Of a stretch of 49,729 bases of DNA, positions 8,864 through 42,340 are shown piece by piece. The number at the start of each line of letters is the position of its first letter. The first letter of the stretch is position 1. This DNA is from Candidatus Bathyarchaeota archaeon. GTDB lineage: Archaea > Thermoproteota > Bathyarchaeia > Bathyarchaeales > Bathyarchaeaceae. The stretch covers positions 1,301,016-1,350,744 of the forward strand of contig CP070679.1 in assembly GCA_020352535.1 (NCBI GenBank), in the 5' to 3' direction. The translations under genes and the position numbers were made by a program. Under the pieces are notes generated by a model, which was not told the DNA's origin, did not search any database, and saw only the letters and a list, made by a program, of their open reading frames with translations.

Positions 8864-9577
8864 ATGAAGAGTCCCGCCATAGTTACTGTCCTGCTCGTTC
8901 TTTCAGCAACGCTGACCACACCAAGCTTTGCTTCTTTAACCCTGCACGCGACAATAGGGCAAAACATTCAAGTTGTCTTCGACTTTGAAGACATCGACTC
9001 CGCATTGTATAATCAAACCAAACAACAGGACATATTTGGCGTTTCGACGATTCCAGAGACTATTAAGGCGGACCTAGAAGAACGTAATCTTGAGAATGTG
9101 GATTGCGTATATGACCCCACTCAGGAGATTTTTGAGGACTCAACAAAGTCGATACATATTGAGTTTGCCTTAATTGGTCTGGACATCATTCAAGTAGTAG
9201 TTGATAATACAACCAGAAATAAAGTCTCTACGATTAGAACAGATTGGCGGAGGTTTCAGGTTAACCTGACAAGCGAATACGTATTGGACTTCACTGAATA
9301 CTTTGGGATTCCTCTAAGAGAGTGGGAATTCCACAACCAAACATCACCGGCCTCCTTTTACTTCAACCGCACAGATTCGCTTGAATTTGACGCAATTTGC
9401 AGTTTTACATTACCAAATAATGCAATTAATCCCCGTGTTGCTGAGGACTGGGATACAATCATTTTCGAGCTTCCACCATCCCTTGGCGAGTCTCTTCTCA
9501 ATAGCCCATTCTCGATTCTTATAGCAATAGTATTGGTAAATGTGATTGCAGTCATCTACCGTAGGATTCGAAAGTAG
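8864..9577 (+). CDS. Secreted, C-terminally anchored surface protein with several N-glycosylation sequons
   Basis: Signal peptide 'MKSPAIVTVLLVLSATLTTPSFA', C-terminal TM plus basic tail 'FSILIAIVLVNVIAVIYRRIRK', and sequons NQT, NTT, NLT, NQT, NRT. GGAGG lies before the ATG. Confidence 0.6.
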   Translation: MKSPAIVTVLLVLSATLTTPSFASLTLHATIGQNIQVVFDFEDIDSALYNQTKQQDIFGVSTIPETIKADLEERNLENVDCVYDPTQEIFEDSTKSIHIEFALIGLDIIQVVVDNTTRNKVSTIRTDWRRFQVNLTSEYVLDFTEYFGIPLREWEFHNQTSPASFYFNRTDSLEFDAICSFTLPNNAINPRVAEDWDTIIFELPPSLGESLLNSPFSILIAIVLVNVIAVIYRRIRK

Positions 9578-9612: not shown

Positions 9613-10170
9613 TTAACCTTCAGCTCCTAGAAGCAAGTCTACAAGTGTCTTTCGGTCAATCTCAGCACGAGTTCTCCAGTCAAGGTACAGCTGATTGTTC
9701 TCATCTTCAGCTAAATATCCAGAGCTGATGTAGCGATTCATGTTCATATCTACTCTCCAGCCTGGTAGCTTGTTGCGGAGAAGACCCTCCACGTCAGTTC
9801 TTGAAGCTTTACCCTTCTTTGACAGTATACAGGAGATAGCTGTAGCCAGCCCCGCGATGTCATCGATGCGCCACCCCATCATCTTTACCTCCTCGGAGGT
9901 AATGTCTCCTCGAAGAGTGACGTAGAATCGAGCCTTATCCAATTGCGATGGAGTTGGTTTATCTGTTGGTACGGGCTCTTCAAAGATTGTGTTCACCTGC
10001 AAATCTAGCTTTTCAAGGTAACTATCCAGTATCTTGAGCACCTTGGGGTAATCAGAGCCCAGCTTTCGCCGAAGCTCCCAGCCCTTAACGCCAGGCTTCC
10101 TATGATGCCTATAGAATAGGAGGTGGGTAGCTCCCTTAATCTTTCTAGCATAGTAAGCCTTTCTCTTCAA
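9613..10170 (-). CDS. Tandem winged-helix KITE-like protein resembling Nse3/MAGE (third gene of the SMC-like operon)
   Basis: 185 aa with a TTG start overlapping the upstream stop (TTGA). 'GLATAISCILSKKGKASRTDVEGLLRNKL' and 'YLAEDENNQLYLDWRTRAEIDRKTLVDLL' parallel the MAGE-homology WH-B pattern as I recall it. The N-terminal 'HLLFYRHHRKPGVKGWELRRKLGSDYPKVLKILDSYLEKL' resembles WH-A. Confidence 0.55.
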   Translation of the reverse strand: MKRKAYYARKIKGATHLLFYRHHRKPGVKGWELRRKLGSDYPKVLKILDSYLEKLDLQVNTIFEEPVPTDKPTPSQLDKARFYVTLRGDITSEEVKMMGWRIDDIAGLATAISCILSKKGKASRTDVEGLLRNKLPGWRVDMNMNRYISSGYLAEDENNQLYLDWRTRAEIDRKTLVDLLLGAEG

Positions 10171-10925
10171 TCAAGCTCACCTCGTTTCCATTTCATCCAT
10201 TCTTCAATACTGATGGAAACGGGAATTGAGACAAGTTGCTTCGACCCAACTATATTGCGCGGTTTCTTGAAGGGTTTGATGAAGACCTCTTCTTCTAGTC
10301 GATGGATTTCCAGAGTTGCATATCCATATGTTATGAGAAAGCTTGTCATATACGCCCGTTTCATCGTTTCAGCAAACGTTTCAGCTCCTATAAAGTCCCA
10401 ATAGCGAATCTTCTCGCCCCCTTTGACACTTTGCTTCAGTTCTTCCCAGAATGTTTGCAGTTCTTCGGAGAAAGCTTTCTCAGCAAGTATTCTCTGCTTC
10501 ACCAGCTCTTTGCGGGTTGTAGCTCCAAGGTCGGTTTTCTGGGAGGCCCGCTTCAGCCATCTTTCATTAGTTGGGAGAAGGTTTCGCCAGTAGCTTACCG
10601 CTCCAGCCAAGCTATGAGGGGATAGCTGCTCCAGCTCAACAATAGGGCGCCATGCTTTAAGAAAGAGAGCTGCCAGCTCTTCCTTGCCCAGCCTTCGAAT
10701 CTTGTCTTCTAGCAAGAAGGGGTCTGTGTAGAGAGAAGTCGATTGATGTTTAACCCAGCTACTTTGAAGCCCAATGACCGAGGCTAATCTCTCGATAGCC
10801 TCAGCATCCAAACAGAGCTCGTCAGGTGACTCCCACTCAGGGAAGTATTCTCGAACAACTTCTAGAATGTCATCGACGTCTACGATGAAAGGATCGAGGT
10901 TTCTTTCTTCAACGGATTGGCACAA
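10167..10925 (-). CDS. Kleisin-like protein (ScpA/Nse4-like; second gene of the SMC-like operon)
   Basis: 252 aa with a TTG start and no ATG in the first ~187 codons. C-terminal 'TFAETMKRAYMTSFLITYGYATLEIHRLEEEVFIKP' parallels the Nse4 C-terminal WH motif and the ScpA C-terminus in this window ('VRTFITLLFLAQTGEVSLWQEE'). Confidence 0.55.
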   Translation of the reverse strand: MCQSVEERNLDPFIVDVDDILEVVREYFPEWESPDELCLDAEAIERLASVIGLQSSWVKHQSTSLYTDPFLLEDKIRRLGKEELAALFLKAWRPIVELEQLSPHSLAGAVSYWRNLLPTNERWLKRASQKTDLGATTRKELVKQRILAEKAFSEELQTFWEELKQSVKGGEKIRYWDFIGAETFAETMKRAYMTSFLITYGYATLEIHRLEEEVFIKPFKKPRNIVGSKQLVSIPVSISIEEWMKWKRGELD

Positions 10926-10982
10926 GCTGACAACTCTCTGCAGTCTATCGCTACCTATCTTCTTCTGTTTGACCGAGGGCAG

Positions 10983-13028
10983 CTAGATGACCTCCTTGAC
11001 GAATGAAGTTCCCTCAACGTTCTGGACCGTGATAAGGTGGACGTCCTTTCCTACATAGGTCACCTGGCTAGGAGTGATTGCCAAGTATTGGGCATCCAAT
11101 CCCTTGACAGAGGCCACTAGCAGGTTAGCTATGATCTCCCTATTCTTAGGGTCCATATGAATGTCATATTCATCGACTGCTCTGAATGGAGATCGCACAT
11201 GTTGTTGGAGGGCTAGGAGAAAACTGATTGTGGCAATGCTTCGTTCGCCACCACTCTGCGTGTAAGAGTCGAGGTGTACCGGCGTTCCCCCTTTGAAGCC
11301 CACGAATATTTCAAGACCAGCATCTTCGATATCATGTTCATTAGCAAGCTTGACCTCTCCGATGGCTTGAGCTTGGGAGAGTATTTTTTTATATCGAAGG
11401 TTGACCTGCTTGAAAAGGGTCTGAATGATTGTTTTCCACGCTGCTACGCGAGTCTTAACCTCGGAGAGAGCCTTCTGACGGTTTTCCGAGACTAGTTGAG
11501 CCTTCTCCTTCAGTTCAAGATATAATGTGGAGTAAGACTCGTACATACGTTCGATATCTTCAGAAACGTCGGCGAGAGCTGCGAGATGCCCGTCAGTCAC
11601 TCGAATCTCATCAAGAAGTTCTAAAGGGGTTTTCGTGGTTATAACGCGGAGGCCTGACTCTTCGGCCTTTTTCACTTCGGAGTTTAGCCCAGCAAGGGAG
11701 GCATTGAGCTGCCGGTTAAGATCCTGTAGAGCCTTTGCAGCAACTTCGCTTCGGTATTGAAGTAAAACTAGATTAGCCTTCAAATCGGAGATGCTTGTGT
11801 TCATTGTTTCCATTTCGTTGAACAAGCGTTCATTCTCTTGTTTTGCATCCGAGACCTGAATGTGTAACCTTTCAAGTTGCATGTCTGAGTTCTCGATAGA
11901 AGCTTTTAGGTCTCTGCTTCTAGAATCAAGCTGTTCAGCCTGTATGCTCTCCGATATCTCGTATGTTTCCTTCAGTTCTGTAAGCAGAGCCTTGACATCT
12001 AGCGGGTTTGTGACTGCTTGAAATGCTGCTTCCAACCGGGCAACCCTGTTCGCATATTCTATCTTTCCCTTCTGCTGTATCTCGGACCACAATGCGGTTT
12101 CATTCAGAGCTTGGCTGGCCATTTGAGTGGTTACTTCATGTTTCGCCTGTTCGTATTCGAGAACTAGCTGCTCTTGGAGGATACTACGAAACTCTGCTTT
12201 CGTCTTGCTGAGCTTTGCTTCTTGACTGCTTAGCTGTTCTTGAGTTGTCTTCGCTTCAGTTTGGATCTGCAGGGCTTCGATTTGTTGTGCTTGAACTTGG
12301 TTTCTTAGTTCATTTACCTTATCCTCGCGCTTTGAGACTTCGGCCCATGCTAGTTCTCGTTCAAGCAAGTTTCTTTTAATTCTGAGCTGTTTCTTCTGTT
12401 GGTACCGATCATACTGTTCCCTCCAATAGTTGAGTGTTTGGACAGCGGATTCAAGAAGCTGATCTACCGATTCCTCCTGGCTCATGATTCGGCTTAGTTT
12501 ACGCTGAGCCTTAGCTACGTTCTTGCGGTAGGATTCGAGCCCAACCGCAGCTTCAACCATTCTAAGCTTTTCCTGAGGAGAGAGAACTGTGAATTGCCCC
12601 ACCATGTTTTGGTGCATAATAATAAGCATGTTGTCAGGATCGACTCCTAGCTTTGAGAGGAGTCTCTCGACCTCTTTTCTTGTGGCTGCTCTATTTTCTA
12701 GTTCAAACCAGTATTTTCCGTCACGTCTGAGCATTCTCGTAAGGAAGATGTAGTCCTTCTTGATTCTGGGTACTGGGCGTCGTCCGCTCCTTGGAGAGTT
12801 ATCCAAGGCCAGTGTGACTCGAGCTTGGTCTTTGCCCCATCGAATAAGATCGCTCAGCTTCCGGGATCGTTCAGTATAAGACTGGCCCAATGCAACAGAG
12901 ATTCCGTGCAACATAGATGACTTGCCTGAACCATTGGGTCCACAGACGACGTTGACGCCTGGTTTGAAGGGCATCCTGGCATATTCGTAGGACATGAAAT
13001 TTTCGAGGATAACTTCGCGAATCAGCAC
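10983..13028 (-). CDS. Short SMC-family ATPase (681 aa) with an SMC5/6-like head and no hinge
   Basis: GTG start. Walker A 'GPNGSGKSS' within 'ILENFMSYEYARMPFKPGVNVVCG', Q-loop region 'IIMHQNMVGQF', signature 'QSGGERSIATISFLLALQ', Walker B/D-loop 'SPFRAVDEYDIHMD'. About 370 aa of heptad-rich coiled coil lie between the head halves. Confidence 0.8.
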   Translation of the reverse strand: MLIREVILENFMSYEYARMPFKPGVNVVCGPNGSGKSSMLHGISVALGQSYTERSRKLSDLIRWGKDQARVTLALDNSPRSGRRPVPRIKKDYIFLTRMLRRDGKYWFELENRAATRKEVERLLSKLGVDPDNMLIIMHQNMVGQFTVLSPQEKLRMVEAAVGLESYRKNVAKAQRKLSRIMSQEESVDQLLESAVQTLNYWREQYDRYQQKKQLRIKRNLLERELAWAEVSKREDKVNELRNQVQAQQIEALQIQTEAKTTQEQLSSQEAKLSKTKAEFRSILQEQLVLEYEQAKHEVTTQMASQALNETALWSEIQQKGKIEYANRVARLEAAFQAVTNPLDVKALLTELKETYEISESIQAEQLDSRSRDLKASIENSDMQLERLHIQVSDAKQENERLFNEMETMNTSISDLKANLVLLQYRSEVAAKALQDLNRQLNASLAGLNSEVKKAEESGLRVITTKTPLELLDEIRVTDGHLAALADVSEDIERMYESYSTLYLELKEKAQLVSENRQKALSEVKTRVAAWKTIIQTLFKQVNLRYKKILSQAQAIGEVKLANEHDIEDAGLEIFVGFKGGTPVHLDSYTQSGGERSIATISFLLALQQHVRSPFRAVDEYDIHMDPKNREIIANLLVASVKGLDAQYLAITPSQVTYVGKDVHLITVQNVEGTSFVKEVI

Positions 13029-13171
13029 CTAGGTGGGCTCTCCGTTTGTCCGATATAGAGATGCCTTCACTTTTAAAAGGAATACGATTTCGTGCGGGGC
13101 ACTACTTAGATCTCGATCCTGCTTGATTGCAGACTTGGCTCTGCTAGGGTTCCTGCATTTGGTTCCCTGTT

Positions 13172-15001
13172 CTAGATTGGGTGCTCATACTTGAATTCTT
13201 GCATGCCGCCGCCACGGTTAACATTGCCATGCACAACCACAAAGACCGCTCCTTCAATAGCCCTTGGAAAAATGGGAAATCCGGTTGGGTTAAAGAGTAA
13301 GCCGCTAGTAAGGTCTATGTTACTGGCCCCTTTTGCTTTGATTTGGAAAACTATAATGGCTAGTGTCCCATTTCCGCTGACACCGCTATCTGGCGTGCCT
13401 AGTGTTGACAGTTCTTCTATATGGATTACTCCTTCACCGGGGTATGTTTCACAACTAAGTGCAGTCGTTCGGTTTCCATAAGAGCCTTTCAGAAAATCGC
13501 CTTCAGAAACATCGGAGGCTTCGAGAATCGCAGGATTCCACCAGAGGTAGACCTCCCAAGCATCTACGAATCTAGCCTCTGAGATATCTATGTTCAGGCT
13601 AAAGGATTCACCGGGGTCTCCGGTGTTTGAGTATGGTCCTAAATGGATGCGGGTGTACGGGGGTAGCGCAAAATTGGCAGTTACTGATCCACCGGAAGGC
13701 ACAGTCCTAGTAGTGGTATCACTTGAATATCCTGCTGCTGCAGCGGTTACATTGTAGGTCCATGATGGCAGATTGGAGAGGATGTAGTCTCCATTTGTGT
13801 CTGTGGTGTTGGTGTGGCCGTTCACGGTGACACTGGCTCCAGCTATTCCGGTACCGGTTTCGGTGTCTGTCACGTTTCCAACTATACTTCCGGTTGGGAT
13901 TGTGGAAATAATGAAATCAAGAGTTGTTGTGTCCCCTTCAGTGACTCTGACATTTGATTGTGACTCGCTAGCATAGCCTGGGGCTGAGGCTGCGACTGTG
14001 TATCTATCAGCCAAGGCAAACATGGTGTAGTGACCAGTAGAGTCTGTAGTGCCTTGAAATGCAGAGTCCGCTTTGACTAGTGCTCCAGCAATTGGCTGGT
14101 CCGTGTCTTGGTCTTTGACTGTCCCATTGATTATTCCAAATGGAGTTAACTCAAAGTCAAGGGTTAGCGAGCTACTTGGTTCCACTTCAGCGGTTGTGGA
14201 TTGAGACACATATCCTATTTCATATGCATCGACTGTCCAATATGGCCACGCTGGCACACTCTCGATTGAATACTCTCCATTTGGGTCTGCTACCGCTGAT
14301 TTTTCGAATGAACCTCTACTTACTCTTACAATGGCTTGGCTAAGAGCCTGCGTAGTCGAAGAGTCTGTGACCGTTCCAGAGATTGTGCCAGGTGCAACTT
14401 GGTCTAGCCCGAAGTCCGCTATTGCTGTTGCACCGGCAGACACAGTGACCTGTTGGGTTTCATTGGTGCAGCCTGGGGCTGTGGCAGCAATCGTGAGTTG
14501 TCCATCAGATAAATCTAGTGCTTCATAGTATCCCGTGGAGTTTGTGAAGACGAAATGACCATTTATTGTTACATTCGCTTCAGCTATTCCTACACCGGGT
14601 ATAGACGAGTCATACACTCGTCCTCTTATCGACAGTAGGTGTAGTCTGAAATCTGGAAGAGGTGGATTAGCAGTTTCACGAATAAATAACTCGTATGTTT
14701 GGCTGAGATAGCCAGAGGCGAGGGTTGAAATTGCGTATGGTCCTGGGGCTATCTCAGAGATTGTGTAGTATCCATTGGTATCTGTTGTGTTAGTCTGATG
14801 GGAGGGGCCGGCTGCAGAAACAATTGCTCCAGCGATTCCCAGCCCAGTGTTCAGGTCTACTACTCGCCCGTTCGCTGTTCCCATGACTTGACCGGAGCTA
14901 AGCTGCACTCCAGCTGTGAACAGATGAAACACCAATACGATCAGGAGGGCACACAGGGCTTTGGAACTGGAACGCTGTGATTTCACCTTAAGTCCGTTCA
15001 C
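13172..15001 (-). CDS. Secreted protein with about 5 CarboxypepD_reg-like beta-sandwich repeats and a C-terminal cohesin-like domain
   Basis: Signal/TM 'ALCALLIVLVFHLFTAGV'. Five repeats of the type 'G.V.D..TG.GIAGA.V...G....TD.NG.Y....P..Y.V.A.A.GY'. The C-terminal 'FSLNIDISEARFVDAWEVYLWWNPAILEASDVSEGDFLKG...GNGTLAIIVFQIKAKG' resembles cohesin. Confidence 0.7.
   Translation of the reverse strand: MNGLKVKSQRSSSKALCALLIVLVFHLFTAGVQLSSGQVMGTANGRVVDLNTGLGIAGAIVSAAGPSHQTNTTDTNGYYTISEIAPGPYAISTLASGYLSQTYELFIRETANPPLPDFRLHLLSIRGRVYDSSIPGVGIAEANVTINGHFVFTNSTGYYEALDLSDGQLTIAATAPGCTNETQQVTVSAGATAIADFGLDQVAPGTISGTVTDSSTTQALSQAIVRVSRGSFEKSAVADPNGEYSIESVPAWPYWTVDAYEIGYVSQSTTAEVEPSSSLTLDFELTPFGIINGTVKDQDTDQPIAGALVKADSAFQGTTDSTGHYTMFALADRYTVAASAPGYASESQSNVRVTEGDTTTLDFIISTIPTGSIVGNVTDTETGTGIAGASVTVNGHTNTTDTNGDYILSNLPSWTYNVTAAAAGYSSDTTTRTVPSGGSVTANFALPPYTRIHLGPYSNTGDPGESFSLNIDISEARFVDAWEVYLWWNPAILEASDVSEGDFLKGSYGNRTTALSCETYPGEGVIHIEELSTLGTPDSGVSGNGTLAIIVFQIKAKGASNIDLTSGLLFNPTGFPIFPRAIEGAVFVVVHGNVNRGGGMQEFKYEHPI
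13666..14875 (-). repeat. Intragenic tandem domain repeats (about 80-85 aa units, 5 copies) in the secreted protein
   Basis: Recurring 'I.G.V.D...' through 'TDTNG.Y' blocks: GRVVDLNTG, IRGRVYDSS, ISGTVTDSS, INGTVKDQD, IVGNVTDTE. Divergent at the DNA level. Confidence 0.6.
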
Positions 15002-15075
15002 CTACAGTCAGCTGATTGGTCTTAAAAAATAAAAAAGGAGATGGGGTTGGCTATCCCTTATGTAGGATTCGGCTG

Positions 15076-16455
15076 TCAGTGTGGTCCGAGTGCTGCGACT
15101 GCAGCAACAGCTGCGTCTGTCTGAAGAAGGCCTGAGCCTACTGCGGGGTCATCCCATTCTGTCCAGTAGAAATTGCCGTCGTAGAGTTCGTAAATCGCCA
15201 TATATGGAAGTGGGCCTAGCCAGTAGCCGTTTTCGTATGTCAGCGGCGCGATGTCTGCGGTGCTTTCAAGGATTGCTTCTACTTCGCTTTGCACTAGTTT
15301 TCGTCCGTTCTTCTCAGCCATGAGGGCAGCTGTTCCAGCTACGTGTGGAGCCGCCATGCTGGTTCCTCCAACGAACCAGTAGCAATCCTCAGGATCTTCG
15401 GGTAATGGCCCATAGTAGGGATCCCAATAGGGGCCAACACACCAGCTTCCGGGTGCAGCAACGTCAAGATCTTGGCCTTCAAGCTCCCAAGCGCTGTAGT
15501 ACGTAATATAGGTCTGTGTACCAGCGTAGGCTCCGAAGTAGACAGATGCAGGTGCAGGGGTCATCAGGTCTTCAGGGACGTCTTCGAGCCAGAAACCACC
15601 ATATCCACCAGGATGCCATTGGCCAGTCCAGCCTGCGGCAGCTGCGGATATGACCTGTGGATAGCCACCTGGGTAGCCCATACCAGCCATGCCGTTGTTA
15701 CCTGCAGATGCGACAATGATAACTCCGGCTTCAATTGCTTGGTTAATGGCGTCTTCGATGTCTGAGCTTGGTACGGATGAGCCCAAGCTCATGTTGATGA
15801 TGATCTTTCCAGGTTCAAGTGTTCCATCCAAGACTAGTGATGTGATATAGTCGATGCCTGCAGCAACCATTCCGGATGTGCCCCAAGCAGCCCATTCATC
15901 ATAGTCATAGAATGATAGTACCTTGACTGGAATGATTTTGGCTAAGGGAGCGACACCTGTTATTGGAAATCCATGGTAGTTGTAGCCAATGATTGTGCTA
16001 GCCACGTGGGTTCCATGACCGCTTACAGCATCGTCCCATGGGACAGTTGTGATTTCGTAGGGTGGTTCGAGATTCTGTACAAATCCGATGCCCAAGTCGC
16101 TTGCTATCCGTGACTTGGGGAAGAAGTAGTTCCAGTTTGGTAACATTCCTGTGTCCAGTACAGCAACGTATATCCCTCTACCGTACCATTTGTCCTGTGG
16201 GTGTGTGAGCTGTTCTAGATCGATCATGTCCATATCAAATGCTACTATACCACCTGCATAGTCGGTGAACCATTTGCCCGGTGGATACGCTGCATCAATA
16301 CCAAATTGACCCTCAGCTCGTATACTGACAGGGGCAGCACGAATGTCTCCAACCGAGAATATCACTGGTGTATGTGCGGTTACTAGGGGCAAGGCGGTGA
16401 AGATGCTCATCAGTAGTAGTGCGATTGCGATGGGGGTGAATAGCTTTCTCTTCAT
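15076..16455 (-). CDS. Secreted subtilisin-like serine protease (peptidase S8)
   Basis: Catalytic triad motifs 'VAVLDTGM' (D), 'SGHGTHVASTIIG' (H) and 'GGTSMAAPHVAGTAALM' (S), plus oxyanion 'SAGNNG'. Signal peptide 'MKRKLFTPIAIALLLMSIFTALPLVTA' from the ATG at 16455. The ORF extends to 16587. Confidence 0.9.
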   Translation of the reverse strand: MKRKLFTPIAIALLLMSIFTALPLVTAHTPVIFSVGDIRAAPVSIRAEGQFGIDAAYPPGKWFTDYAGGIVAFDMDMIDLEQLTHPQDKWYGRGIYVAVLDTGMLPNWNYFFPKSRIASDLGIGFVQNLEPPYEITTVPWDDAVSGHGTHVASTIIGYNYHGFPITGVAPLAKIIPVKVLSFYDYDEWAAWGTSGMVAAGIDYITSLVLDGTLEPGKIIINMSLGSSVPSSDIEDAINQAIEAGVIIVASAGNNGMAGMGYPGGYPQVISAAAAGWTGQWHPGGYGGFWLEDVPEDLMTPAPASVYFGAYAGTQTYITYYSAWELEGQDLDVAAPGSWCVGPYWDPYYGPLPEDPEDCYWFVGGTSMAAPHVAGTAALMAEKNGRKLVQSEVEAILESTADIAPLTYENGYWLGPLPYMAIYELYDGNFYWTEWDDPAVGSGLLQTDAAVAAVAALGPH

Positions 16456-16636
16456 GTTTGTCCATTCCTTCCTCTCTTTCGAGTTTAGCTTCAGGTATAT
16501 TGGCGGAGTAAGTGATAAGAAGCTTGTGGAGATATGTTCTAGCTGCAGATTTATAGCAGACACAGCTTGCACAAGACTAAAATTCATGTATGCCGCTGTT
16601 TTACAGGCTTATTAAAGAAGATGAAAGGAGAAGAGA

Positions 16637-30802: not shown

Positions 30803-33800
30803 ATGCCATACATCAAGAAAATTGAGCTGAAAGGCTTCAAATCTTTTGGCCCCAGAACCGCTAGCCTAGTACTAGACAAAGGCTTTACAGCGCTTACTGG
30901 ACCAAATGGAAGTGGAAAGACTAACATCGTGGATGCGGTTCTATTCGGACTCGGGGAGCTGAGTGCTAGAAGACTGCGTGCTGAGAGTTTCGCGAAACTC
31001 ATTTTTCATGGCTCCCCCAAAGCTGGCGTAGAAAAGGCGAAAGCTGCGAAGGTTGTCATCCAATTTGATAATCAAGACCACCGAATACCTGTCGACACGA
31101 GCACAGTTACGATTTCTCGTGAAGTCCATAGGAATGGTCAAAGCATCTACAGATTGAATGGAAGGAGAATCTCGAGATCTCGAATAGTGGAAATGCTGTC
31201 AATGGCGGGAATTAGCCCGACTGGTCATAATATCATTGTCCAAGGAACAATCACGCGAATAGCTGAAGTGTCCCCGCATGACCGAAGAAAGATGATAGAG
31301 GATTTAGTGGGCATTGCTCAGTATGATTCTGAGAAGGCTGAAGCAGAAGAGAAGCTTCGAACTGCTGAAATCTCCATTCGGACGGCTATGGGGCGCATAG
31401 ATGAAGTTCAGAAAAGAGTTGACGATTTAGAAAGAGAACGTAATGAATTACGGCGATGCAATTTTATCCAGCATGAAATCAAACGATTTGAAGCGATGAA
31501 GCTCTCCTATGGAATTTCACAGACTAACATACAAATTGAAGATATATCATCTAGTATTGAAGAGGCCGGTTCCAGAGTTGAGAAGCTTAGGGATTTGAGA
31601 GACCAGCTTAGAACTCGACGTTATGAAATCGCGACTGAGTGGAGAACCCTTAGTTCAGAGGGTGTGGATAAAGGTGGGACACGAGTTCTTGAAGCTCAGA
31701 TTGAGATAGGTGAAATCAAGTCGAAGCTCTCTGAACTAACAGCCAAAATCAACGCTGGAACGGTGAGTCTTGAAGGGTTCAAGAAGATAGAGGAAAATAG
31801 CCTTGAGCGTTTAGAACCCGTCAGAAAGGAAATTTCTGAGGGCCGAAAGAGAATTAAACAGTTAAAACGGTTGCATGACCGGCTATTAAAAGAGCTCACA
31901 TCGAAACAGCTTCAACATAAAGCTATCTCAGATGAAGCAGCAAAGCTTAGGGCAAACCTTGGCGATAATAGCAGGAGAATCAGAAAAGCTGAACAACAAC
32001 TGGATAAGCTCTATCGAAATATGGTAGCCCTCCGAAGCAGTAGTGCCAAGAATCAAGCCGTGGCCAAAGCCCTTGCCAGACGACTAGGCGATCTCCATAC
32101 CCGTAAAGAGAAGTTTGCATCCAGCCTTGAGGAGCTTAAAACATCTTTCGGAGACCTCAAGGATGTAAGAAGCAAACAAGAGAAGCAACTCAAGACTTTA
32201 CAGCGAACTCTAGATCGGAAAAGAATGCAGAAAGAGTCTATGGAAAAGGAAATCATCGAGGCTGGCAAGATTGCAGAGACTGCTAGAGAAGCAGTAGTCG
32301 AGTTTGCGACGCAGCGCAAATTAGCCGAGCGTATTGCAAGAGAGGAGAAAGCACTAAGGAGCATTGAGGAGCTAGGAGAGCTAGGTGTTATACCCGGTAT
32401 ACATGGACGACTTAGAAACCTGATTAAGATAGATCGCGGGTATGAACATGCGATAGAAGCAGCTGCAGCTGGTTGGTTAGACTCTATAGTTGTCGAAAAT
32501 CTTAATGTCGCATTCACGTGCACTGAGACCCTTACACGCCTGAAGTTGGGCAGAATTAAGATAATCCCAATTCAAGAGTCTTCAGACATTAAACCCGTAA
32601 AAGCGCAGAACAGCCGAGATATCGATGGAGCAGCGTTCAGGTTTGTTAAGAGCACAAGACAATATGAACCTGCGATTCTCTTTGTGTTTGGTGATACGCT
32701 AATTACGAGGGATGACAAGGTCGCTCTCTCAATTTCCCGCAGCGGGAACCGAACCGCTACTCTCAGTGGAAACGTGTATGAAACCGGCGGAGGGATTGAA
32801 AGCGGCTACTATAGGGCTCCAATCGATTTCTCCGCAATCATCCCGAGCGAGTCAGCTATCGAGAACCTGAATCAAGCAGTAAGTGCCCTTAAAGACCACC
32901 TCACACGTAGAGAAAGCGATGTAACCGACTTTGAGGACGAAATCGACAGGAACCAACTGGAGTCAACTCGACTAACCGGAGCCATACACACGCTTGAGAA
33001 CGAAATTCATAGAATACAGAAGAGCATCAAATCTACTAAGCGTAACGTGAGACGCATCGATAAATATATCCAAAACGTACAGAAGCGCCTGGAGAGAGAG
33101 AAAGCTCAGAGAGACCTTCAGAGAGCAGAACGCAGCATTACCCAGAAGGAGATACAGAAACTACGTAATGAATTGGCTGATTTGCGGCGGAAGGTAGATT
33201 TATCCAAGATACAGGAGATGGAAATCCAGAAGGAAGGGCTAGAAGAGGAGATCATCAAGTGGCGGCAAAATCTTGGCACTACCGAAACGGAGCTATCAAC
33301 GCTCCAGTCCAAGCTAGATAAGGTTCTCAAGATTAGTGCCGACAACATAAGAGTCCACCTTCGAAAGGCAAAACATCAATTCTCTGTTGTGAACAAGGAG
33401 ATTGTAGGGGTATTAGAGCAGAAGGAGACACTCGAGAAGCGGCTGACTGAACTAGAGAAATCAAAAGATGATTTATCTCGATCAGTTCTGACTGCCAGAG
33501 AGGAGTCAAATAAATTCGCATCTCAGATTGATTCCATTGACAAGAAACTGCGTCAACACGAAGAAGAGCATGACCGCGCTGACCAACTTTTCAACAAGCT
33601 TCAGCTGAAACTTAAGACGCTGCAACTACAGCTAGAACAATATACAAATCGACTAGGGGAATCAGGCTACGAGAAACCTCTGAATGTGCCACCAGAGCAG
33701 CTTGAGCTGGCTGAATCGACAGTAAAACTAATGCGATTTGAGCTGGAAAGACTTGGAGCTGTGAACCAGCTGGCTTTATCTCACTATGCCGACCAAGCAT

Positions 33801-34351
33801 CTCGTTACAAGGAACTTTCTGTTCGCATGAACGAGTTAGAACGGGAAAAACAGGCCATACTTGAGTTTATGGATGAGATTGAACAAAAGAAACGCAAGGT
33901 CTTCCTGAAGGCTTTCAACCAGGTAAACGAGAATATTGGTCGGTTCTTCTCTAAACTTACAGGAGGTGGTGAGGCAGCGCTTAGACTTGAAAAGGCAGAA
34001 GAACCGCTGGCTGGTGGAATAGATATGGTTGTGCAGTTTCCGGCGAAACCACCCATTCTTGTGAGTGGAGCCAGTAGCGGAGAGAGATCGGTCGCAGCAG
34101 TTGCCTTCATATTCGCTATACAAGATTTTCTACCTGCCACCTTTTACTTATTCGATGAAGTTGATGCCCATCTGGATGCACTTCACGTGGAGAAGCTGGG
34201 GGCACTTCTATCTGAGGAGACAAGTAATTCACAATCTCTGATTGTCACTCTAAAACCTGAAATGGTCAGCAAGGCGCGAAGGATTTATGGTGTGTACGAA
34301 CGCAAAGGAGTTTCGCACGTGGTTTCCACCACGTTCAAGGGGGCGGCCTAG
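30803..34351 (+). CDS. smc: Canonical chromosome segregation ATPase SMC (1182 aa)
   Basis: 'YIKKIELKGFKSFG......L.....FTALTGPNGSGKTNIVDA', hinge 'GIHGRLRNLIKIDRGYEHAIEAAAAGWL', signature 'SGASSGERSVAAVAFIFAIQ' and Walker B 'FYLFDEVDAHLD'. Confidence 0.95.
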   Translation: MPYIKKIELKGFKSFGPRTASLVLDKGFTALTGPNGSGKTNIVDAVLFGLGELSARRLRAESFAKLIFHGSPKAGVEKAKAAKVVIQFDNQDHRIPVDTSTVTISREVHRNGQSIYRLNGRRISRSRIVEMLSMAGISPTGHNIIVQGTITRIAEVSPHDRRKMIEDLVGIAQYDSEKAEAEEKLRTAEISIRTAMGRIDEVQKRVDDLERERNELRRCNFIQHEIKRFEAMKLSYGISQTNIQIEDISSSIEEAGSRVEKLRDLRDQLRTRRYEIATEWRTLSSEGVDKGGTRVLEAQIEIGEIKSKLSELTAKINAGTVSLEGFKKIEENSLERLEPVRKEISEGRKRIKQLKRLHDRLLKELTSKQLQHKAISDEAAKLRANLGDNSRRIRKAEQQLDKLYRNMVALRSSSAKNQAVAKALARRLGDLHTRKEKFASSLEELKTSFGDLKDVRSKQEKQLKTLQRTLDRKRMQKESMEKEIIEAGKIAETAREAVVEFATQRKLAERIAREEKALRSIEELGELGVIPGIHGRLRNLIKIDRGYEHAIEAAAAGWLDSIVVENLNVAFTCTETLTRLKLGRIKIIPIQESSDIKPVKAQNSRDIDGAAFRFVKSTRQYEPAILFVFGDTLITRDDKVALSISRSGNRTATLSGNVYETGGGIESGYYRAPIDFSAIIPSESAIENLNQAVSALKDHLTRRESDVTDFEDEIDRNQLESTRLTGAIHTLENEIHRIQKSIKSTKRNVRRIDKYIQNVQKRLEREKAQRDLQRAERSITQKEIQKLRNELADLRRKVDLSKIQEMEIQKEGLEEEIIKWRQNLGTTETELSTLQSKLDKVLKISADNIRVHLRKAKHQFSVVNKEIVGVLEQKETLEKRLTELEKSKDDLSRSVLTAREESNKFASQIDSIDKKLRQHEEEHDRADQLFNKLQLKLKTLQLQLEQYTNRLGESGYEKPLNVPPEQLELAESTVKLMRFELERLGAVNQLALSHYADQASRYKELSVRMNELEREKQAILEFMDEIEQKKRKVFLKAFNQVNENIGRFFSKLTGGGEAALRLEKAEEPLAGGIDMVVQFPAKPPILVSGASSGERSVAAVAFIFAIQDFLPATFYLFDEVDAHLDALHVEKLGALLSEETSNSQSLIVTLKPEMVSKARRIYGVYERKGVSHVVSTTFKGAA

Positions 34352-35049
34352 TGTCAGCGTCCACTGAGAAGCCTTTCTACTTTCAGCCCCCACTAAACCT
34401 CCTTTTTGAACTCGATAAACTTCACAAGATAATGCCTTGGGATATCAGTATCTCATTTCTTCTCAACTCCTTTCTAGACGAAATGAAAAATCGCGGCGAG
34501 ATTGACTTTAGAGCATCAGGAGTAGCGCTTGACTCTTCAGCTACAATATACCTTATGAAGACCAAACTTCTAATGAAGCTTGAGGAGCCTCCGCCTCCTG
34601 CCAAACCACCGCCAGACTTTCTGCCTCCACCTTTGTTTCTTCCCCTTCGCTACGAGCTGACTTCCACAACAATGCAGCACCTGTTGACAGTACTAGATGA
34701 GGTTCTCAAGGGTGAAAGCCTTTTCAGGTTGAAACCACGTTCAGAGCCCATACTACCGTCTCCTCCTGACCTTCTTCCCCCAGTCGACCTCTATATGATG
34801 GAAATCGAAGAGAGGATGAGAATCCTGCAAAATCTTCTGCGAGAGCTTGCAGGGAGTGGAGAATTGTTATATTTCTCAAGAGTGGTCTCAGGGTTGGAGA
34901 AGCTGGAAGCAGTTAGGACATTCATCACACTCCTCTTCCTGGCGCAAACAGGTGAGGTTAGCCTGTGGCAGGAAGAAGACTCGAGTGAAATCTGTATAAC
35001 TTTACCTGAGGGATCTGCGGTTGGCAGAGATCGAGCTGGAATCGTCTAA
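34351..35049 (+). CDS. scpA: Segregation and condensation protein A (kleisin)
   Basis: GTG start overlaps the smc stop by 1 nt (taGtg). ScpA-like N-terminal helix region and C-terminal WH 'LEAVRTFITLLFLAQTGEVSLWQEE'. Proline-rich linkers 'EEPPPPAKPPPDFLPPPLFLP'. Confidence 0.8.
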   Translation: MSASTEKPFYFQPPLNLLFELDKLHKIMPWDISISFLLNSFLDEMKNRGEIDFRASGVALDSSATIYLMKTKLLMKLEEPPPPAKPPPDFLPPPLFLPLRYELTSTTMQHLLTVLDEVLKGESLFRLKPRSEPILPSPPDLLPPVDLYMMEIEERMRILQNLLRELAGSGELLYFSRVVSGLEKLEAVRTFITLLFLAQTGEVSLWQEEDSSEICITLPEGSAVGRDRAGIV

Positions 35050-35599
35050 ACTCCCTAGCGAAGAGAGATTGAGACGAAGACTAGATTTATTGGAAGCAGC
35101 TCTCTACGTAGCTGGCCGTCCTTTGGATTCAAAGACTCTAGGGTCCATCATTAAGACTCGCTCTAAAAGTAAGGTTCAAAAGTGGGTGAGAATCCTGCAG
35201 CACGAATACAAGAACCGTGAAACAGCCCTTGAAATCTTAGAACTCGAAGATGAACGATTTGTGTTGCAGTTGAAAACTGAGTACTCACCCCAGGTTCAGA
35301 AGTTGGCTATTCGACCGCTTCTTTCTAAGGGTCCATTAAAAACGCTATCTTACATCGCTTACCGACAACCTGTCTTACAATCTCAGGTCATCGATGTTCG
35401 TGGTCATCATGCATATGGTCATCTGGGGCAACTAGCAGACATGGGCTTAATTTCCCGAGAAAGGGTTGGCAGAACCCGATTGCTACGAACTACTGGGTTC
35501 TTTGCTGATTACTTTTGTCTAAGCCACGATCTACGAACCATGAAACGGCAGTTGAAACGAGTATTCGAGGATTTCGGGAAGACAGAACCTGAGCATTAG
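35021..35599 (+). CDS. scpB: Segregation and condensation protein B (KITE, tandem winged helix)
   Basis: TTG start, 29-nt overlap with scpA. 'LLEAALYVAGRPLDSKTLGSII' and 'LKTLSYIAYRQPVLQSQVIDVRG....HLGQLADMGLI' are ScpB patterns. Confidence 0.8.
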   Translation: MAEIELESSKLPSEERLRRRLDLLEAALYVAGRPLDSKTLGSIIKTRSKSKVQKWVRILQHEYKNRETALEILELEDERFVLQLKTEYSPQVQKLAIRPLLSKGPLKTLSYIAYRQPVLQSQVIDVRGHHAYGHLGQLADMGLISRERVGRTRLLRTTGFFADYFCLSHDLRTMKRQLKRVFEDFGKTEPEH

Positions 35600-39996: not shown

Positions 39997-41118
39997 ATGA
40001 AGATTCTGGAGTCCTTTGGAAGAATATTATATGAAAGACACGTGATCGCAGAGAAATGGAAGGCTCAACATAGACCAGTGATAGGCTGGAATAGCACTTA
40101 TACACCGGAAGAAATCATCCTTGCCGCTGATGCGCTACCGATTAGGATTTTAGGAAGCCTTAGACCTACAACCCTAGCAGACGCATGTCTCCCTCGTAAT
40201 GCATGCTCGTTCGTCAGAAGCACCCTTGATATGGCATTAAGAGGTGACTACGCCTACTTAGATGGACTTGTAACTTCTAACTCTTGCGACAACTTCAACA
40301 AGACATACGACCTCTGGAAGTCCTACGCGAAGATTCCTTACTTCCACTTCATCAATACCCCCCACACGAATACTTCTGTGGCTCACAGCTTCTTCTGCAG
40401 GGAGATTAGAAGGCTTAAAGAATCTCTGGAAGACGCCTTCAGAACCACCATACCCAGCAAGGCAATCAATAGAGCTATTCAGCGCTGTAATGAAAATAGA
40501 GTTCTCCTCAAGAAGGTTTATGATCTGAGGAGAAAGAGCACGCCTGCTATCAATGGTGTTGAAGCACTTGAAATTGTACTATCCAGTATGCTAACCTCGA
40601 AGGAGCAACATAGTACTCTCTTAAGACAACTCCTGAAGGAGATTGAGAACCGACCCAACCCGCCTAAACCAGGTATAAGGCTCTTAATCACAGGAAGTGT
40701 AATGGACGCAACAGACCTGATAAGCATTACCGAGGCTGTTGGCGGAATTGTAGTAGCAGATGACCTATGCACGGGAACAAGATACTTTTGGAACCTTGTC
40801 AGCGCAAGCAAAGACCCCATAGATGCAATATCGAAAAGATACCTGGACAAGATACCCTCACCATCCAGATATCATCACCGAAATGGACGATTCGCCCACA
40901 TAGAAAACATGATCAGACGGTACGATGTTGAAGCTGTCATCAACTTTCTTCTGAAATTCTGCGACACCCATATGTTCGATGCCCCGCTCTTGACAGAAGA
41001 ACTGAGAAGCCAAGGAATACCTGTCTTGAACCTTGAATGGGAGCACACCAGAAGCGGGATTGCACCTTTGAAAACAAGAATTGAAGCTTTCATAGAGACT
41101 ATCAAAGGAGTGCCATGA
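39997..41118 (+). CDS. 2-hydroxyacyl-CoA dehydratase / benzoyl-CoA reductase BcrC/BadD/HgdB-family subunit
   Basis: 373 aa. 'PVIGWNSTYTPEEIILAADALPIRILG' with conserved Cys contexts (CSFVRS, NSCDNF, DLCTGTRY, KFCDTH) is typical of the HGD-D family. Confidence 0.8.
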   Translation: MKILESFGRILYERHVIAEKWKAQHRPVIGWNSTYTPEEIILAADALPIRILGSLRPTTLADACLPRNACSFVRSTLDMALRGDYAYLDGLVTSNSCDNFNKTYDLWKSYAKIPYFHFINTPHTNTSVAHSFFCREIRRLKESLEDAFRTTIPSKAINRAIQRCNENRVLLKKVYDLRRKSTPAINGVEALEIVLSSMLTSKEQHSTLLRQLLKEIENRPNPPKPGIRLLITGSVMDATDLISITEAVGGIVVADDLCTGTRYFWNLVSASKDPIDAISKRYLDKIPSPSRYHHRNGRFAHIENMIRRYDVEAVINFLLKFCDTHMFDAPLLTEELRSQGIPVLNLEWEHTRSGIAPLKTRIEAFIETIKGVP

Positions 41119-42332: not shown

Positions 42333-42340
42333 CAGGAGAG

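What the first reader, a model, noticed from the sequence alone, without database searches (positions are those of the whole stretch)
9613..13028. Second SMC-kleisin-KITE operon whose three proteins look like SMC5/6, Nse4 and Nse3/MAGE rather than Smc-ScpAB
Three co-directional, tightly packed genes encode:
(i) A 681-aa SMC-family ATPase. Its head motifs are 'ILENFMSY..FKPGVNVVCGPNGSGKSS', 'IIMHQNMVGQF', 'QSGGERSIATISFLLALQ' and 'SPFRAVDEYDIHMD'. As I recall the families, these fit the eukaryotic SMC5/SMC6 pattern (NFM...; LSGGERS.ST..F.L.L; PFR..DE[FI][DN]..MD). They differ clearly from the canonical SMC 18 kb away ('SGASSGERSVAAVAFIFAIQ', 'FYLFDEVDAHLD').
(ii) A 252-aa protein. Its C-terminus 'TFAETMKRAYMTSFLITYGYATLEIHRLEEEVFIKP' parallels the Nse4 C-terminal winged helix (SF..TVENIFH.SF.I.DG.A.I......P.I.P). 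Its N-terminus is ScpA-like.
(iii) A 185-aa tandem winged-helix protein. 'GLATAISCILSKKGKASRTDVEGLLRNKL' and 'YLAEDENNQLYLDWRTRAEIDRKTLVDLL' parallel the MAGE-homology domain of Nse3 ('GLLMIVLGLIFMKGN.I.E...W.FL..LG', 'YLEY......YEFQWGPR...E.SK.KVL.F').
The same window also carries a complete canonical smc-scpA-scpB. This would therefore be an additional, compact prokaryotic counterpart of the Smc5/6-Nse4-Nse3 core. That bears on the origin of the eukaryotic complex, or on an unexplored DNA-restriction or repair role.
Basis: partly seen in the sequence, partly recalled or inferred. Interest (0 to 1): 0.9.

Follow-up and report, generated by a model that had tools for sequence, protein, structure and literature searches.

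The report
Archaeal Smc5/6-like operon, hinge-less ATPase
This Bathyarchaeia genome carries, beside its ordinary Smc-ScpA-ScpB genes, a second three-gene operon whose proteins are the archaeal relatives of the eukaryotic Smc5/6, Nse4 and Nse1/Nse3 subunits; this kind of operon is already published, but its ATPase has short arms and no hinge domain, which the papers I read do not discuss.

Summary
Three co-directional, translationally coupled genes lie on the minus strand at 9613-13028. They encode a 681-aa SMC-type ATPase, a kleisin and a 185-aa tandem winged-helix protein. The kleisin is annotated at 252 aa but is probably 271 aa.

- The ATPase and its family profile hit SMC5 and SMC6 first in the PDB. 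The window's canonical 1182-aa SMC hits no SMC5/6 chain.
- The kleisin family profile hits only Nse4.
- The third protein's profile and its AlphaFold model (pLDDT 93) hit Nse3/MAGE-G1 and Nse1 ahead of JetB, MukE and ScpB.
- The trio is contiguous in 56 of 62 Bathyarchaeia loci that have enough upstream sequence, and it recurs in more distant archaea.

The finding is not new. Yoshinaga and Inagaki (2021) described SMC5/6-related archaeal SMCs. van Hooff et al. (bioRxiv 2024/2025) described whole SMC5/6-related operons in TACK and Asgard archaea, and their table includes Bathyarchaeia.

What I add is the ATPase architecture. Across the family (570-681 aa) it is a coiled-coil hairpin with no hinge domain and no zinc hook. 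It therefore cannot close a hinge-dimerised ring. The function has not been tested. I infer an ATP-gated DNA clamp, more likely in DNA repair than in chromosome folding.

The parts
13071..13078 (-). TTTTAAAA, a likely archaeal TATA box about 45 nt upstream of the ATPase start codon. It sits in the 143-nt gap after the preceding gene.
   Evidence: Read directly from the sequence. A consensus resemblance only; no transcript data.
10983..13028 (-). SMC5/6-related ABC ATPase, 681 aa, GTG start. An N-terminal and a C-terminal head half are joined by a coiled-coil hairpin. There is no hinge domain.
   Evidence: Pfam SMC_N 1.9e-35 spanning residues 3-661, with no SMC_hinge at E<=1. Best PDB hits are SMC5/SMC6. 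AlphaFold gives helices 165-337 and 344-458 at pLDDT above 90.
12915..12941 (-). Walker A / P-loop, GPNGSGKSS (residues 30-38).
   Evidence: Sequence. Invariant in 35 homologues.
12000..12017 (-). Coiled-coil apex loop (residues 338-343, VTNPLD), the position where a hinge would sit in a true SMC.
   Evidence: AlphaFold secondary structure. N341 and P342 are nearly invariant among close relatives. In more distant relatives the whole apex is deleted by about 45-60 residues.
11238..11258 (-). ABC signature motif, QSGGERS (residues 591-597).
   Evidence: Invariant QSGGER in alignment A5. Aligned with TQSGGERAVST of yeast Smc5.
11151..11186 (-). Walker B and D-loop, FRAVDEYDIHMD (residues 615-626).
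   Evidence: Aligned with [13 protein letters not shown] of Smc5. The canonical paralogue has FYLFDEVDAHLD.
10167..10982 (-). Nse4-like kleisin, probably 271 aa from the CTG at 10982 that directly follows the ATPase TAG stop. The annotated 252-aa form starts at the TTG at 10925.
   Evidence: The N-terminal extension is conserved in homologues. The family profile hits only Nse4 chains in the PDB.
10194..10394 (-). C-terminal winged-helix domain of the kleisin (Nse4_C-like, residues 197-263 of the 271-aa form). It is the presumed contact with the ATPase cap.
   Evidence: Pfam Nse4_C at E=0.04 for this protein, below the cut-off. It matches 10 of 15 family members, best 2.9e-4. The profile aligns with yeast Nse4 residues 261-356 at 1.6e-7.
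9613..10170 (-). Nse1/Nse3(MAGE)-like kite: 185 aa, two winged-helix domains, no RING finger. Its TTG start overlaps the kleisin TGA stop (TTGA).
   Evidence: for family and fold. for the start/stop overlap.
30803..35599 (+). Canonical smc (1182 aa, with hinge), scpA (232 aa) and scpB (192 aa). This is the paralogous housekeeping complex and served as the internal control.
   Evidence: Pfam. PDB hits are Pyrococcus Smc and SMC1-4 only. Only distant similarity to the second operon.

Best explanation
This is the Bathyarchaeia copy of the archaeal SMC5/6-related complex. That complex is an ancient paralogue of Smc-ScpAB whose three subunits are the closest prokaryotic relatives of eukaryotic Smc5/Smc6, Nse4 and Nse1/Nse3.

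Shown here:
- The three genes form one tightly coupled operon.
- Each subunit sorts with its Smc5/6-complex counterpart and not with the Smc-ScpAB subunits of the same genome.
- The trio is chromosomal, conserved across hundreds of species, and absent from the mobile-element collections searched.
- The ATPase is a coiled-coil hairpin with no hinge.

Inferred from what is established for kleisin-kite SMC complexes:
- Two ATPase molecules engage their heads around two ATP.
- One kleisin binds the head-proximal coiled coil (neck) of one ATPase through its N-terminal helices. It binds the cap of the other through its Nse4-type C-terminal winged helix.
- A kite homodimer sits on the middle of the kleisin.
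- Together these parts clamp DNA on top of the engaged heads, as in the DNA-bound Smc5/6 structures.

My own inference: there is no hinge, and arm length varies (ATPases of 570-681 aa). The only compartment that is certainly closed is therefore the kleisin-heads one. I expect an ATP-gated DNA clamp or short-range tether acting in DNA repair or on aberrant DNA, rather than a long-range loop extruder. The canonical Smc-ScpAB would keep the chromosome-folding role.
For: - ATPase affinity to SMC5/6: with the negative control.
- Kleisin is Nse4-like.
- Kite is Nse1/Nse3/MAGE-like.
- The kite and kleisin are not recent copies of the ScpB and ScpA in the same window. The ATPase heads are only 25-28% identical to the canonical SMC.
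- Operon conservation: kleisin-kite adjacent in 75 of 77 loci and the full trio contiguous in 56 of 62. At least 557 matched stretches in species-representative genomes encode the kite. Distant trios are seen.
- No hinge.
- Not mobile and not a known defence system. The surrounding genes are ordinary metabolic genes.
- Soft link to repair: an Lhr-type helicase gene lies directly after the kite, convergent to it, in three distant loci, and within about 1.4-7 kb in eight others.
- Published phylogenies reach the same placement.
Against: - I built no phylogenetic tree. The SMC5/6 placement here rests on hit ranking, and the margin over archaeal Smc is moderate (110 vs 96 bits for the single sequence; 192 vs 145 for the profile).
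- The kleisin N-terminal domain matched nothing, so only its C-terminal domain is demonstrably Nse4-like.
- The single-protein Pfam hits are below the curated cut-offs.
- The AlphaFold model of the ATPase heads is poor (pLDDT below 50), and no multimer could be predicted. Stoichiometry, neck and cap contacts, and any dimerisation at the coiled-coil tip are untested.
- The window itself has no Lhr gene nearby.
- No experimental data exist for any archaeal member in the papers I read, so the repair-versus-organisation assignment is inference.
Confidence: 0.85

Rival explanations
1. The complex is a second chromosome-organising machine. It would work as a condensin or coalescin-like factor that folds or compartmentalises the chromosome alongside, or redundantly with, Smc-ScpAB, rather than as a repair or clamp complex. 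The identity of the parts is the same; the cellular role differs.
For: - It is a core, single-copy, highly conserved operon in ordinary chromosomal context.
- Yoshinaga and Inagaki argue that many archaea kept only one of the two SMC types, which implies partial redundancy.
- ATP-binding and hydrolysis motifs are intact.
Against: - With no hinge and short, length-variable arms, the architecture lacks the features established for loop-extruding SMCs.
- The same genome keeps a complete canonical Smc-ScpAB.
- An Lhr repair-type helicase is a recurrent neighbour in distant lineages.
Confidence: 0.25
2. The operon is an SMC-based defence system of the Wadjet (JetABC) or Lamassu type that senses and restricts foreign DNA.
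For: - Smc5/6 restricts episomal DNA in humans, and Wadjet uses the same SMC-kleisin-kite layout.
- The ATPase gives generic hits to PADLOC models mad3 (94 bits), LmuB (59) and JetC (43).
- Foldseek lists JetB at rank 7 for the kite.
Against: - The kleisin and kite hit no PADLOC model.
- No JetD-type or other effector gene accompanies the trio in the window or in related loci.
- The genes are near-universal and 64-85% identical across Bathyarchaeia, unlike patchy defence islands.
- There are no copies on plasmids, phages or IMG/VR contigs.
- The ATPase scores far higher against SMC models (178 bits).
Confidence: 0.05
3. The SMC5/6 resemblance is an artefact. On this view the trio is a fast-evolving, reduced duplicate of Smc-ScpAB that arose within TACK archaea and is drawn to SMC5/6, Nse4 and Nse1/3 by long-branch or compositional effects.
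For: - The score margins for the ATPase are moderate.
- van Hooff et al. report that monophyly of all eukaryotic SMCs cannot be rejected (p-AU 0.317).
- Loss of the hinge shows the lineage is derived.
Against: - Three unlinked protein families give the same answer independently, and two of them hit nothing from the ScpA or ScpB families.
- The structure comparison agrees.
- A 36%-identical relative gives the same ranking.
- Published trees recover Nse4-related and Nse1/3-related archaeal clades with strong support, and kleisin monophyly is rejected (p-AU 0.002).
Confidence: 0.07

Closest known systems
Archaeal SMC5/6-related complex (SMC5/6-related aSMC of Yoshinaga and Inagaki 2021, PMC8665677; SMC5/6-related SMC + Nse4-related kleisin + Nse1/3-related kite operons of van Hooff, Raas, Tromer and Eme, bioRxiv 10.1101/2024.01.07.573240)
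   Same: Same three subunit families, same gene order and co-localisation, same coexistence with a canonical Smc-ScpAB operon, and same lineage. Bathyarchaeia rows in their Supplementary Table 3 show an adjacent Nse4-related kleisin and Nse1/3-related kite.
   Different: Nothing essential; this locus is a member. The main text of those two papers, and the one supplement section of the preprint that I read, do not mention that the ATPase lacks a hinge. A term search for 'hinge' in the preprint's supplements found nothing. Both studies removed the coiled-coil region before tree building.
Eukaryotic Smc5/6 holo-complex (Smc5-Smc6-Nse4-Nse1-Nse3, plus Nse2 and Nse5/6)
   Same: Head motifs match (QSGGERS; PFRxVDE....MD; QY..ITP aligned with yeast Smc5). 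The kleisin C-terminal winged helix is Nse4-type. The kite has the tandem winged-helix fold of Nse1 and Nse3/MAGE.
   Different: One ATPase gene, so presumably a homodimer rather than a Smc5-Smc6 heterodimer. One kite gene rather than Nse1 plus Nse3. The 185-aa kite has no RING domain. No Nse2 or Nse5/6 genes are adjacent. There is no hinge, and the arms are about 170 residues where Smc5/6 has longer arms plus a hinge.
Smc-ScpAB (prokaryotic condensin), present in the same window at 30803-35599
   Same: Same overall ATPase-kleisin-kite logic and same gene order.
   Different: Heads are only 25-28% identical. The kleisin similarity is marginal and the kite similarity is undetectable. The canonical SMC has a hinge and is 1182 aa.
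Hinge-less coiled-coil ABC ATPases: Rad50/SbcC, archaeal ASRP/ClsN/Sph, RecN, Lamassu LmuB
   Same: An ABC head with a coiled-coil hairpin that lacks an SMC hinge.
   Different: Rad50 and ASRP dimerise through a CxxC zinc hook. This ATPase has a single cysteine, C29, in the P-loop region. It scores only 66 bits against the ASRP model (cut-off 300), 75 against Rad50 and 19 against RecN. To my knowledge, none of those proteins pairs with a kleisin and a kite.

Membership tests
Archaeal SMC5/6-related complex | ATPase head closer to SMC5/SMC6 than to canonical Smc or SMC1-4 | tested here: met
   PDB ranking for the single sequence, the family profile and a distant relative. The canonical paralogue gives no SMC5/6 hit.
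Archaeal SMC5/6-related complex | Placement in the clade sister to SMC5+SMC6 in a head-domain phylogeny | not tested
   No reference sequences for SMC1-6, MukB, Rad50 and others were available to the scripting tool. I rely on the published trees.
Archaeal SMC5/6-related complex | Nse4-related kleisin | tested here: met
   The profile hits only Nse4 and EID3 in the PDB. Nse4_C matches 10 of 15 members. This holds for the C-terminal domain only.
Archaeal SMC5/6-related complex | Nse1/3-related kite (tandem winged helix, MAGE-type) | tested here: met
   (SMC_Nse1 in 8 of 36 members, MAGE in 2 of 36).
Archaeal SMC5/6-related complex | Genes co-localised as SMC-kleisin-kite, separate from the canonical operon | tested here: met
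SMC protein in the strict sense | Walker A, Q-loop, signature motif, Walker B and D-loop split between the N- and C-termini | tested here: met
   GPNGSGKSS, MHQ, QSGGERS, FRAVDEYDIHMD. SMC_N spans residues 3-661.
SMC protein in the strict sense | Hinge dimerisation domain at the coiled-coil apex | tested here: not met
   No SMC_hinge hit at E<=1, against 6.3e-20 in the canonical paralogue. AlphaFold shows a 6-residue apex loop between two long helices. The apex is unconserved and variably deleted. Relatives of 570-643 aa also lack it.
SMC protein in the strict sense | Antiparallel coiled-coil arm of about 50 nm | tested here: not met
   The arms are about 170-185 residues (helix 165-337 against 344 to about 530). 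By my estimate that is roughly half the canonical arm length. The arms are shorter still in the 570-580-aa relatives.
Eukaryotic Smc5/6 holo-complex | Smc5-Smc6 heterodimer and distinct Nse1 (RING) and Nse3 subunits | tested here: not met
   The operon has one ATPase gene and one 185-aa kite gene. The AlphaFold model shows two winged-helix domains only.
Eukaryotic Smc5/6 holo-complex | Nse2 SUMO ligase on the Smc5 arm; Nse5/6 loader | not tested
   No candidate is adjacent. The rest of the genome was not available.
Wadjet (JetABCD) | JetA, JetB and JetC profile matches plus a JetD Toprim nuclease gene | tested here: not met
   The kleisin and kite have no PADLOC hit. The ATPase scores only 43 bits against JetC. 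There is no fourth gene.
Rad50 / ASRP (ClsN, Sph) | CxxC zinc hook at the apex; curated model score | tested here: not met
   The only cysteine is C29. ASRP 66 bits against a cut-off of 300; Rad50 75 bits or less against cut-offs of 700 or more.

The most novel reading that the evidence does not exclude
The SMC5/6-related ATPases of Bathyarchaeia and other TACK archaea may be natural hinge-less mini-SMCs (570-681 aa) that still work with a bona fide kleisin and kite. To my knowledge, every other kleisin-binding SMC has a hinge. If this is true and not yet described, these archaea carry a core, conserved SMC-kleisin-kite machine that cannot form the classical hinge-closed ring. That would show that the head-kleisin-kite DNA-clamp module can function on its own. 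It would also mean the TACK versions are reduced derivatives, not faithful proxies of the ancestor of eukaryotic Smc5/6.
Probability: 0.45. Interest if true: 0.6.

Novelty: already known. Interest (0 to 1): 0.35.

Why it matters
The existence of an archaeal SMC5/6-related complex bears on how eukaryotes acquired several SMC complexes. That point has already been made in print, and this locus is one more Bathyarchaeia example of it.

The part worth passing on is architectural. A minimal complex of an ATPase homodimer, one kleisin and one kite, with no hinge, is small and apparently self-contained. That would make it a convenient system for reconstitution and cryo-EM. Such work could show what the Smc5/6-type head-kleisin-kite module does to DNA without a ring, and whether the hinge is needed for DNA loading or translocation.

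The recurrent Lhr helicase neighbour gives a testable hint that the complex works in DNA repair.

Tried and rejected
- Single-protein Pfam and NCBIfam scans of the kleisin and kite gave nothing above the cut-offs. Family profiles were needed.
- The first call to the search for related loci, with the 36-sequence kite alignment, failed because no stretch was conserved enough. A smaller alignment worked, but it returned only Bathyarchaeia because the best 80 are kept. The taxonomic breadth therefore had to come from single contig look-ups and one cluster look-up that named only 'Nitrososphaerota archaeon'.
- The top PDB hit of the kite profile, a designed helical repeat protein (7udk), is a repeat-driven false positive: four short, individually insignificant stretches.
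- The AlphaFold model of the ATPase gave unusable heads (pLDDT below 50), so I did not search folds with it.
- Defence-system membership was rejected.
- Plasmid, phage and IMG/VR searches found nothing.
- The ASRP/ClsN, Rad50 and RecN assignments were rejected on score and on the absence of a zinc hook.
- I considered that the in-frame TAG between the ATPase and the kleisin might be read through to make a fusion protein. The in-frame arrangement is not conserved in relatives; by my arithmetic on the coordinates, L029, L059 and L078 are out of frame. I treat it as stop-start coupling.
- A literature search for hinge-less archaeal SMC5/6 relatives found no paper on the subject.

Full report
**1. 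What is in the sequence**

- an ATPase at 10983-13028 (681 aa, GTG start);
- a second gene at 10167-10925 (252 aa from a TTG);
- a third at 9613-10170 (185 aa, TTG).

All quoted peptide strings are present.

The genes are tightly coupled. The kleisin stop TGA overlaps the start TTG of the third gene (TTGA). The ATPase stop TAG (10985-10983) is followed directly, in the same frame, by CTG and 19 codons, LPSVKQKKIGSDRLQRVVS.

These 19 codons match the N-termini of the 272-aa homologues that dominate the family: P0244 begins LPSKRQKKKLGKERLQRIIDL, and P0257 begins with an ATG methionine. In tblastn the match to related genomes runs back to residues 1-8 of this extended form. A GGAGGT sits 7 nt upstream of the CTG. 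I conclude the kleisin is most likely 271 aa (10167-10982).

A TTTTAAAA about 45 nt upstream of the ATPase start looks like an archaeal TATA box.

The window also holds a complete canonical smc (1182 aa, SMC_N plus SMC_hinge), scpA and scpB at 30803-35599. The surrounding genes are ordinary: phosphoglucose isomerase-type SIS proteins, subtilases, acyl-CoA synthetases, 2-hydroxyglutaryl-CoA dehydratase subunits and a PAS histidine kinase. There are no tRNA genes.

Database names for the identical proteins give the organism as a Candidatus Bathyarchaeota MAG.

**2. The ATPase**

Pfam places it in SMC_N (1.9e-35, residues 3-661) with no hinge hit. NCBIfam gives 178 bits to the archaeal SMC model. 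That is far below the model's cut-off, but far above Rad50 (75 bits), ASRP (66), arcadin-4 (45) and RecN (19).

Against all PDB sequences:

| Query | SMC5/SMC6 | Pyrococcus Smc | Others |
|---|---|---|---|
| Window ATPase, 681 aa | yeast and human SMC5 107-110 bits; human SMC6 101 | 96 | SMC3 63; Rad50 38 |
| Family profile, 15 sequences including two relatives at 36% identity | first ten hits all SMC5 or SMC6, 157-192 bits | 145 | SMC2 117 |
| 580-aa relative from a 'Nitrososphaerota archaeon' MAG | SMC5 124 bits; human SMC6 107 | 99 | - |
| Control: window's canonical SMC, 1182 aa | none among 54 hits at E<=1e-5 | 358 | SMC2, SMC3, SMC4, SMC1 |

The residue-level alignment to yeast Smc5 shows the shared head motifs:
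- TQSGGERS aligns with TQSGGERA.
- SPFRAVDEYDIHMDPKNREII aligns with [21 protein letters not shown].
- AQYLAITPSQVT aligns with SQYFLITPKLLT.

I did not build a tree, so the placement rests on ranking plus the published phylogenies.

**3. The kleisin**

On its own it gives only a sub-threshold Nse4_C hit (E=0.036). I built an alignment of 15 family members, six of them taken from distant loci at 23-35% identity. Its profile hits exactly four PDB sequences, all Nse4: yeast Nse4 at 1.6e-7 to 6.5e-7 and human NSE4/EID3 at 4e-3. No ScpA, MukF, JetA or Rad21 chain appears. Pfam Nse4_C matches 10 of the 15 members (best 2.9e-4).

The match covers the C-terminal winged helix. Against the ScpA of the same window, profile comparison gives only E=0.05, over the equivalent C-terminal region.

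**4. The third protein (kite)**

An exhaustive HMMER search of 1.84 billion cluster representatives found 117 clusters. A 36-member alignment of full-length representatives has a mean column identity of 31%.

- Profile against the PDB: after one repeat-driven false positive, the profile hits Xenopus Nse3 (3.9e-5), human MAGE-G1/NSE3 (1.8e-3, 5.3e-3), NSE1 (0.23-0.28) and MAGE-A4 (0.3-0.4). No ScpB or MukE appears.
- Pfam per member: SMC_Nse1 matches 8 of 36 members (best 4.7e-6) and MAGE matches 2.
- Structure: AlphaFold with this alignment gives a confident model (pLDDT 93, pTM 0.80) of two winged-helix domains.
- Foldseek against the PDB ranks human NSE1 first (2.2e-5, TM 0.64). Xenopus Nse3 (6.0e-5) and Nse1 (9.6e-5, TM 0.65) follow, then MAGE-G1 and MAGE-A4. 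JetB (4.5e-3), MukE (8e-3) and ScpB (1.4e-2) come only afterwards.
- Against the window's own ScpB, the profile comparison finds nothing (probability 0.2%).

**5. Conservation of the neighbourhood**

A scan of one genome per GTDB species found at least 557 stretches that encode a relative of the kite. The best 80 loci are all Bathyarchaeia.

In these loci:
- the kleisin is directly upstream of the kite in 75 of the 77 that have room for it;
- ATPase-kleisin-kite is contiguous in 56 of the 62 that have room.

The six exceptions are as follows. Two have a 2.5-4.7 kb insertion between the ATPase and the kleisin; in genome BA2 (L003) the insertion carries a PaREP1 gene. In three the ATPase lies elsewhere in the genome. 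In one the kite stands alone.

Flanking genes are shared only with the two closest relatives, so the trio is the conserved unit.

Kites at 30-40% identity from other archaea sit in the same arrangement. The sizes below are ATPase / kleisin / kite in aa:
- L087: 623 / 254 / 255
- L088: 643 / 242 / 192
- L086: at least 649 / 273 / 193
- L089: 570 / 234 / 184
- L090: 580 / 257 / 207

One further locus has only the kleisin-kite pair.

No relative of the kite is found on plasmids, phages or IMG/VR viral contigs. The kleisin and kite match no defence-system model.

**6.

Four lines of evidence agree.
- The ATPase has no SMC_hinge match, whereas the canonical paralogue scores 6.3e-20.
- AlphaFold models the heads poorly because the alignment was shallow. 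It models the arm with pLDDT above 90: one helix from 165 to 337, a six-residue loop (338-343, VTNPLD), and a return helix from 344 to 458 that continues, with two short breaks, to about 554.
- Among 35 close homologues the heads and the head-proximal coiled coil are nearly invariant, while residues of about 230-455 are poorly conserved.
- In more distant relatives the apex is simply deleted by about 45-60 residues. The family goes down to 570 aa, and the two shortest relatives scanned (570 and 580 aa) also have no hinge hit.

There is one cysteine in the protein (C29), so there is no zinc hook either.

The protein is therefore an SMC5/6-type head on a short hairpin arm, and it fails two of the three architectural criteria for an SMC proper. 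The main texts of the two key papers mention hinges only as general background, and both removed the coiled-coil region before phylogeny. A term search of the preprint's supplements for 'hinge' found nothing. Three further literature searches found nothing on hinge-less SMC5/6 relatives.

**7. How it most likely works**

By homology with kleisin-kite SMC complexes, I infer the following assembly.
- Two ATPases engage their heads around ATP.
- One kleisin bridges them asymmetrically, its N-terminus on the neck of one and its Nse4-type winged helix on the cap of the other.
- A kite homodimer binds the kleisin.
- DNA is clamped on the engaged heads.

Without a hinge or hook, the arms cannot be shown to enclose DNA, and only the kleisin compartment is certainly closed. 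I therefore favour an ATP-gated DNA clamp or short-range tether over a long-range loop extruder, with the canonical Smc-ScpAB keeping the chromosome-folding role.

One soft functional hint points to repair. A gene for an Lhr-type helicase (DEAD, WHD_Lhr and DEAD_assoc domains) lies directly after the kite, convergent to it, in three distant loci. It lies within about 1.4-7 kb in eight more of the 90 loci held. It is not in this window.

Confidence in the identity of the complex is high (0.85). Confidence in the clamp-and-repair reading is moderate at best.

**8. Comparison with the literature, and novelty**

Yoshinaga and Inagaki (2021) defined 'SMC5/6-related aSMC'. Of 80 such proteins, 66 came from TACK archaea, Bathyarchaeota among them, and 44 of the genomes also carried a canonical SMC.

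van Hooff et al. (bioRxiv 2024, version 2 of May 2025) extended this to the whole complex. They found Nse4-related kleisins and Nse1/3-like kites in TACK and Asgard archaea. These are encoded in operons separate from the condensin/cohesin-related operon, and the kleisin and kite were neighbours in all 31 cases. Bathyarchaeia rows in their Supplementary Table 3 show exactly this pair.

I rate the finding as already known and its interest as modest (0.35). The residual value lies in four points: the hinge-less architecture, the probable 271-aa kleisin with a CTG start abutting the ATPase stop, the use of non-ATG starts for all three genes, and the Lhr association.

Noticed in passing
window 10925-10985 (minus strand): The ATPase stop TAG is followed directly and in frame by CTG plus 19 codons that are conserved with the N-termini of 272-aa homologues. 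The kleisin therefore probably starts at a CTG (271 aa), not at the annotated internal TTG (252 aa). GGAGGT lies 7 nt upstream of the CTG.
   Followed up: partly
window 13028, 10982/10925, 10170: None of the three genes of the operon has an ATG start (GTG; CTG or TTG; TTG). In homologues the same positions are sometimes ATG. This may reflect low or coupled translation.
   Followed up: no
L088:3305-4663, L089:9521-12373, L090:3175-6018; also L082, L004, L028, L030, L043, L056, L061, L067: An Lhr-type helicase gene (DEAD, Helicase_C, WHD_Lhr, DEAD_assoc) lies directly after the kite gene, convergent to it, in three distant lineages. It lies within about 1.4-7 kb in eight other loci. There is none in this window.
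   Followed up: partly
L003:4654-7188 and L005 (between ATPase and kleisin): In Bathyarchaeota BA2 and one other MAG the operon is interrupted by 2.5-4.7 kb between the ATPase and the kleisin. In BA2 the insert carries a PaREP1-family gene and an unassigned 143-aa ORF.
   Followed up: partly
L007, L011, L014 (Bathyarchaeia); L082: The kleisin-kite pair occurs without the ATPase within 8 kb upstream. In L007's genome (CP070759.1, 1,722,799 bp) an ATPase, P0083, appears to lie on the same-length contig but elsewhere. The pair is thus the more tightly linked unit.
   Followed up: partly
window 8864-9577 (plus strand): The 237-aa ORF convergent with the operon has an N-terminal signal-like and a C-terminal hydrophobic segment and no Pfam hit. 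It recurs directly downstream of the kite in 18 of the 80 Bathyarchaeia loci at 36-47% identity.
   Followed up: no
window 13172-17953: A 609-aa protein with five CarboxypepD_reg repeats and a cohesin domain sits next to two subtilase (Peptidase_S8) genes. This looks like a secreted protease cluster unrelated to the finding.
   Followed up: no
window 39997-43912: Two 2-hydroxyglutaryl-CoA dehydratase D-component genes lie next to an AMP-binding acyl-CoA synthetase gene. A second AMP-binding acetyl-CoA-synthetase-like gene lies at 35789-37744, directly after scpB.
   Followed up: no
window 34351-35049: The canonical kleisin (ScpA) matches SMC_ScpA, CNDH2_C and Rad21_Rec8 only below Pfam's cut-offs. 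Both kleisins of this genome are thus hard to recognise with single-sequence scans.
   Followed up: no
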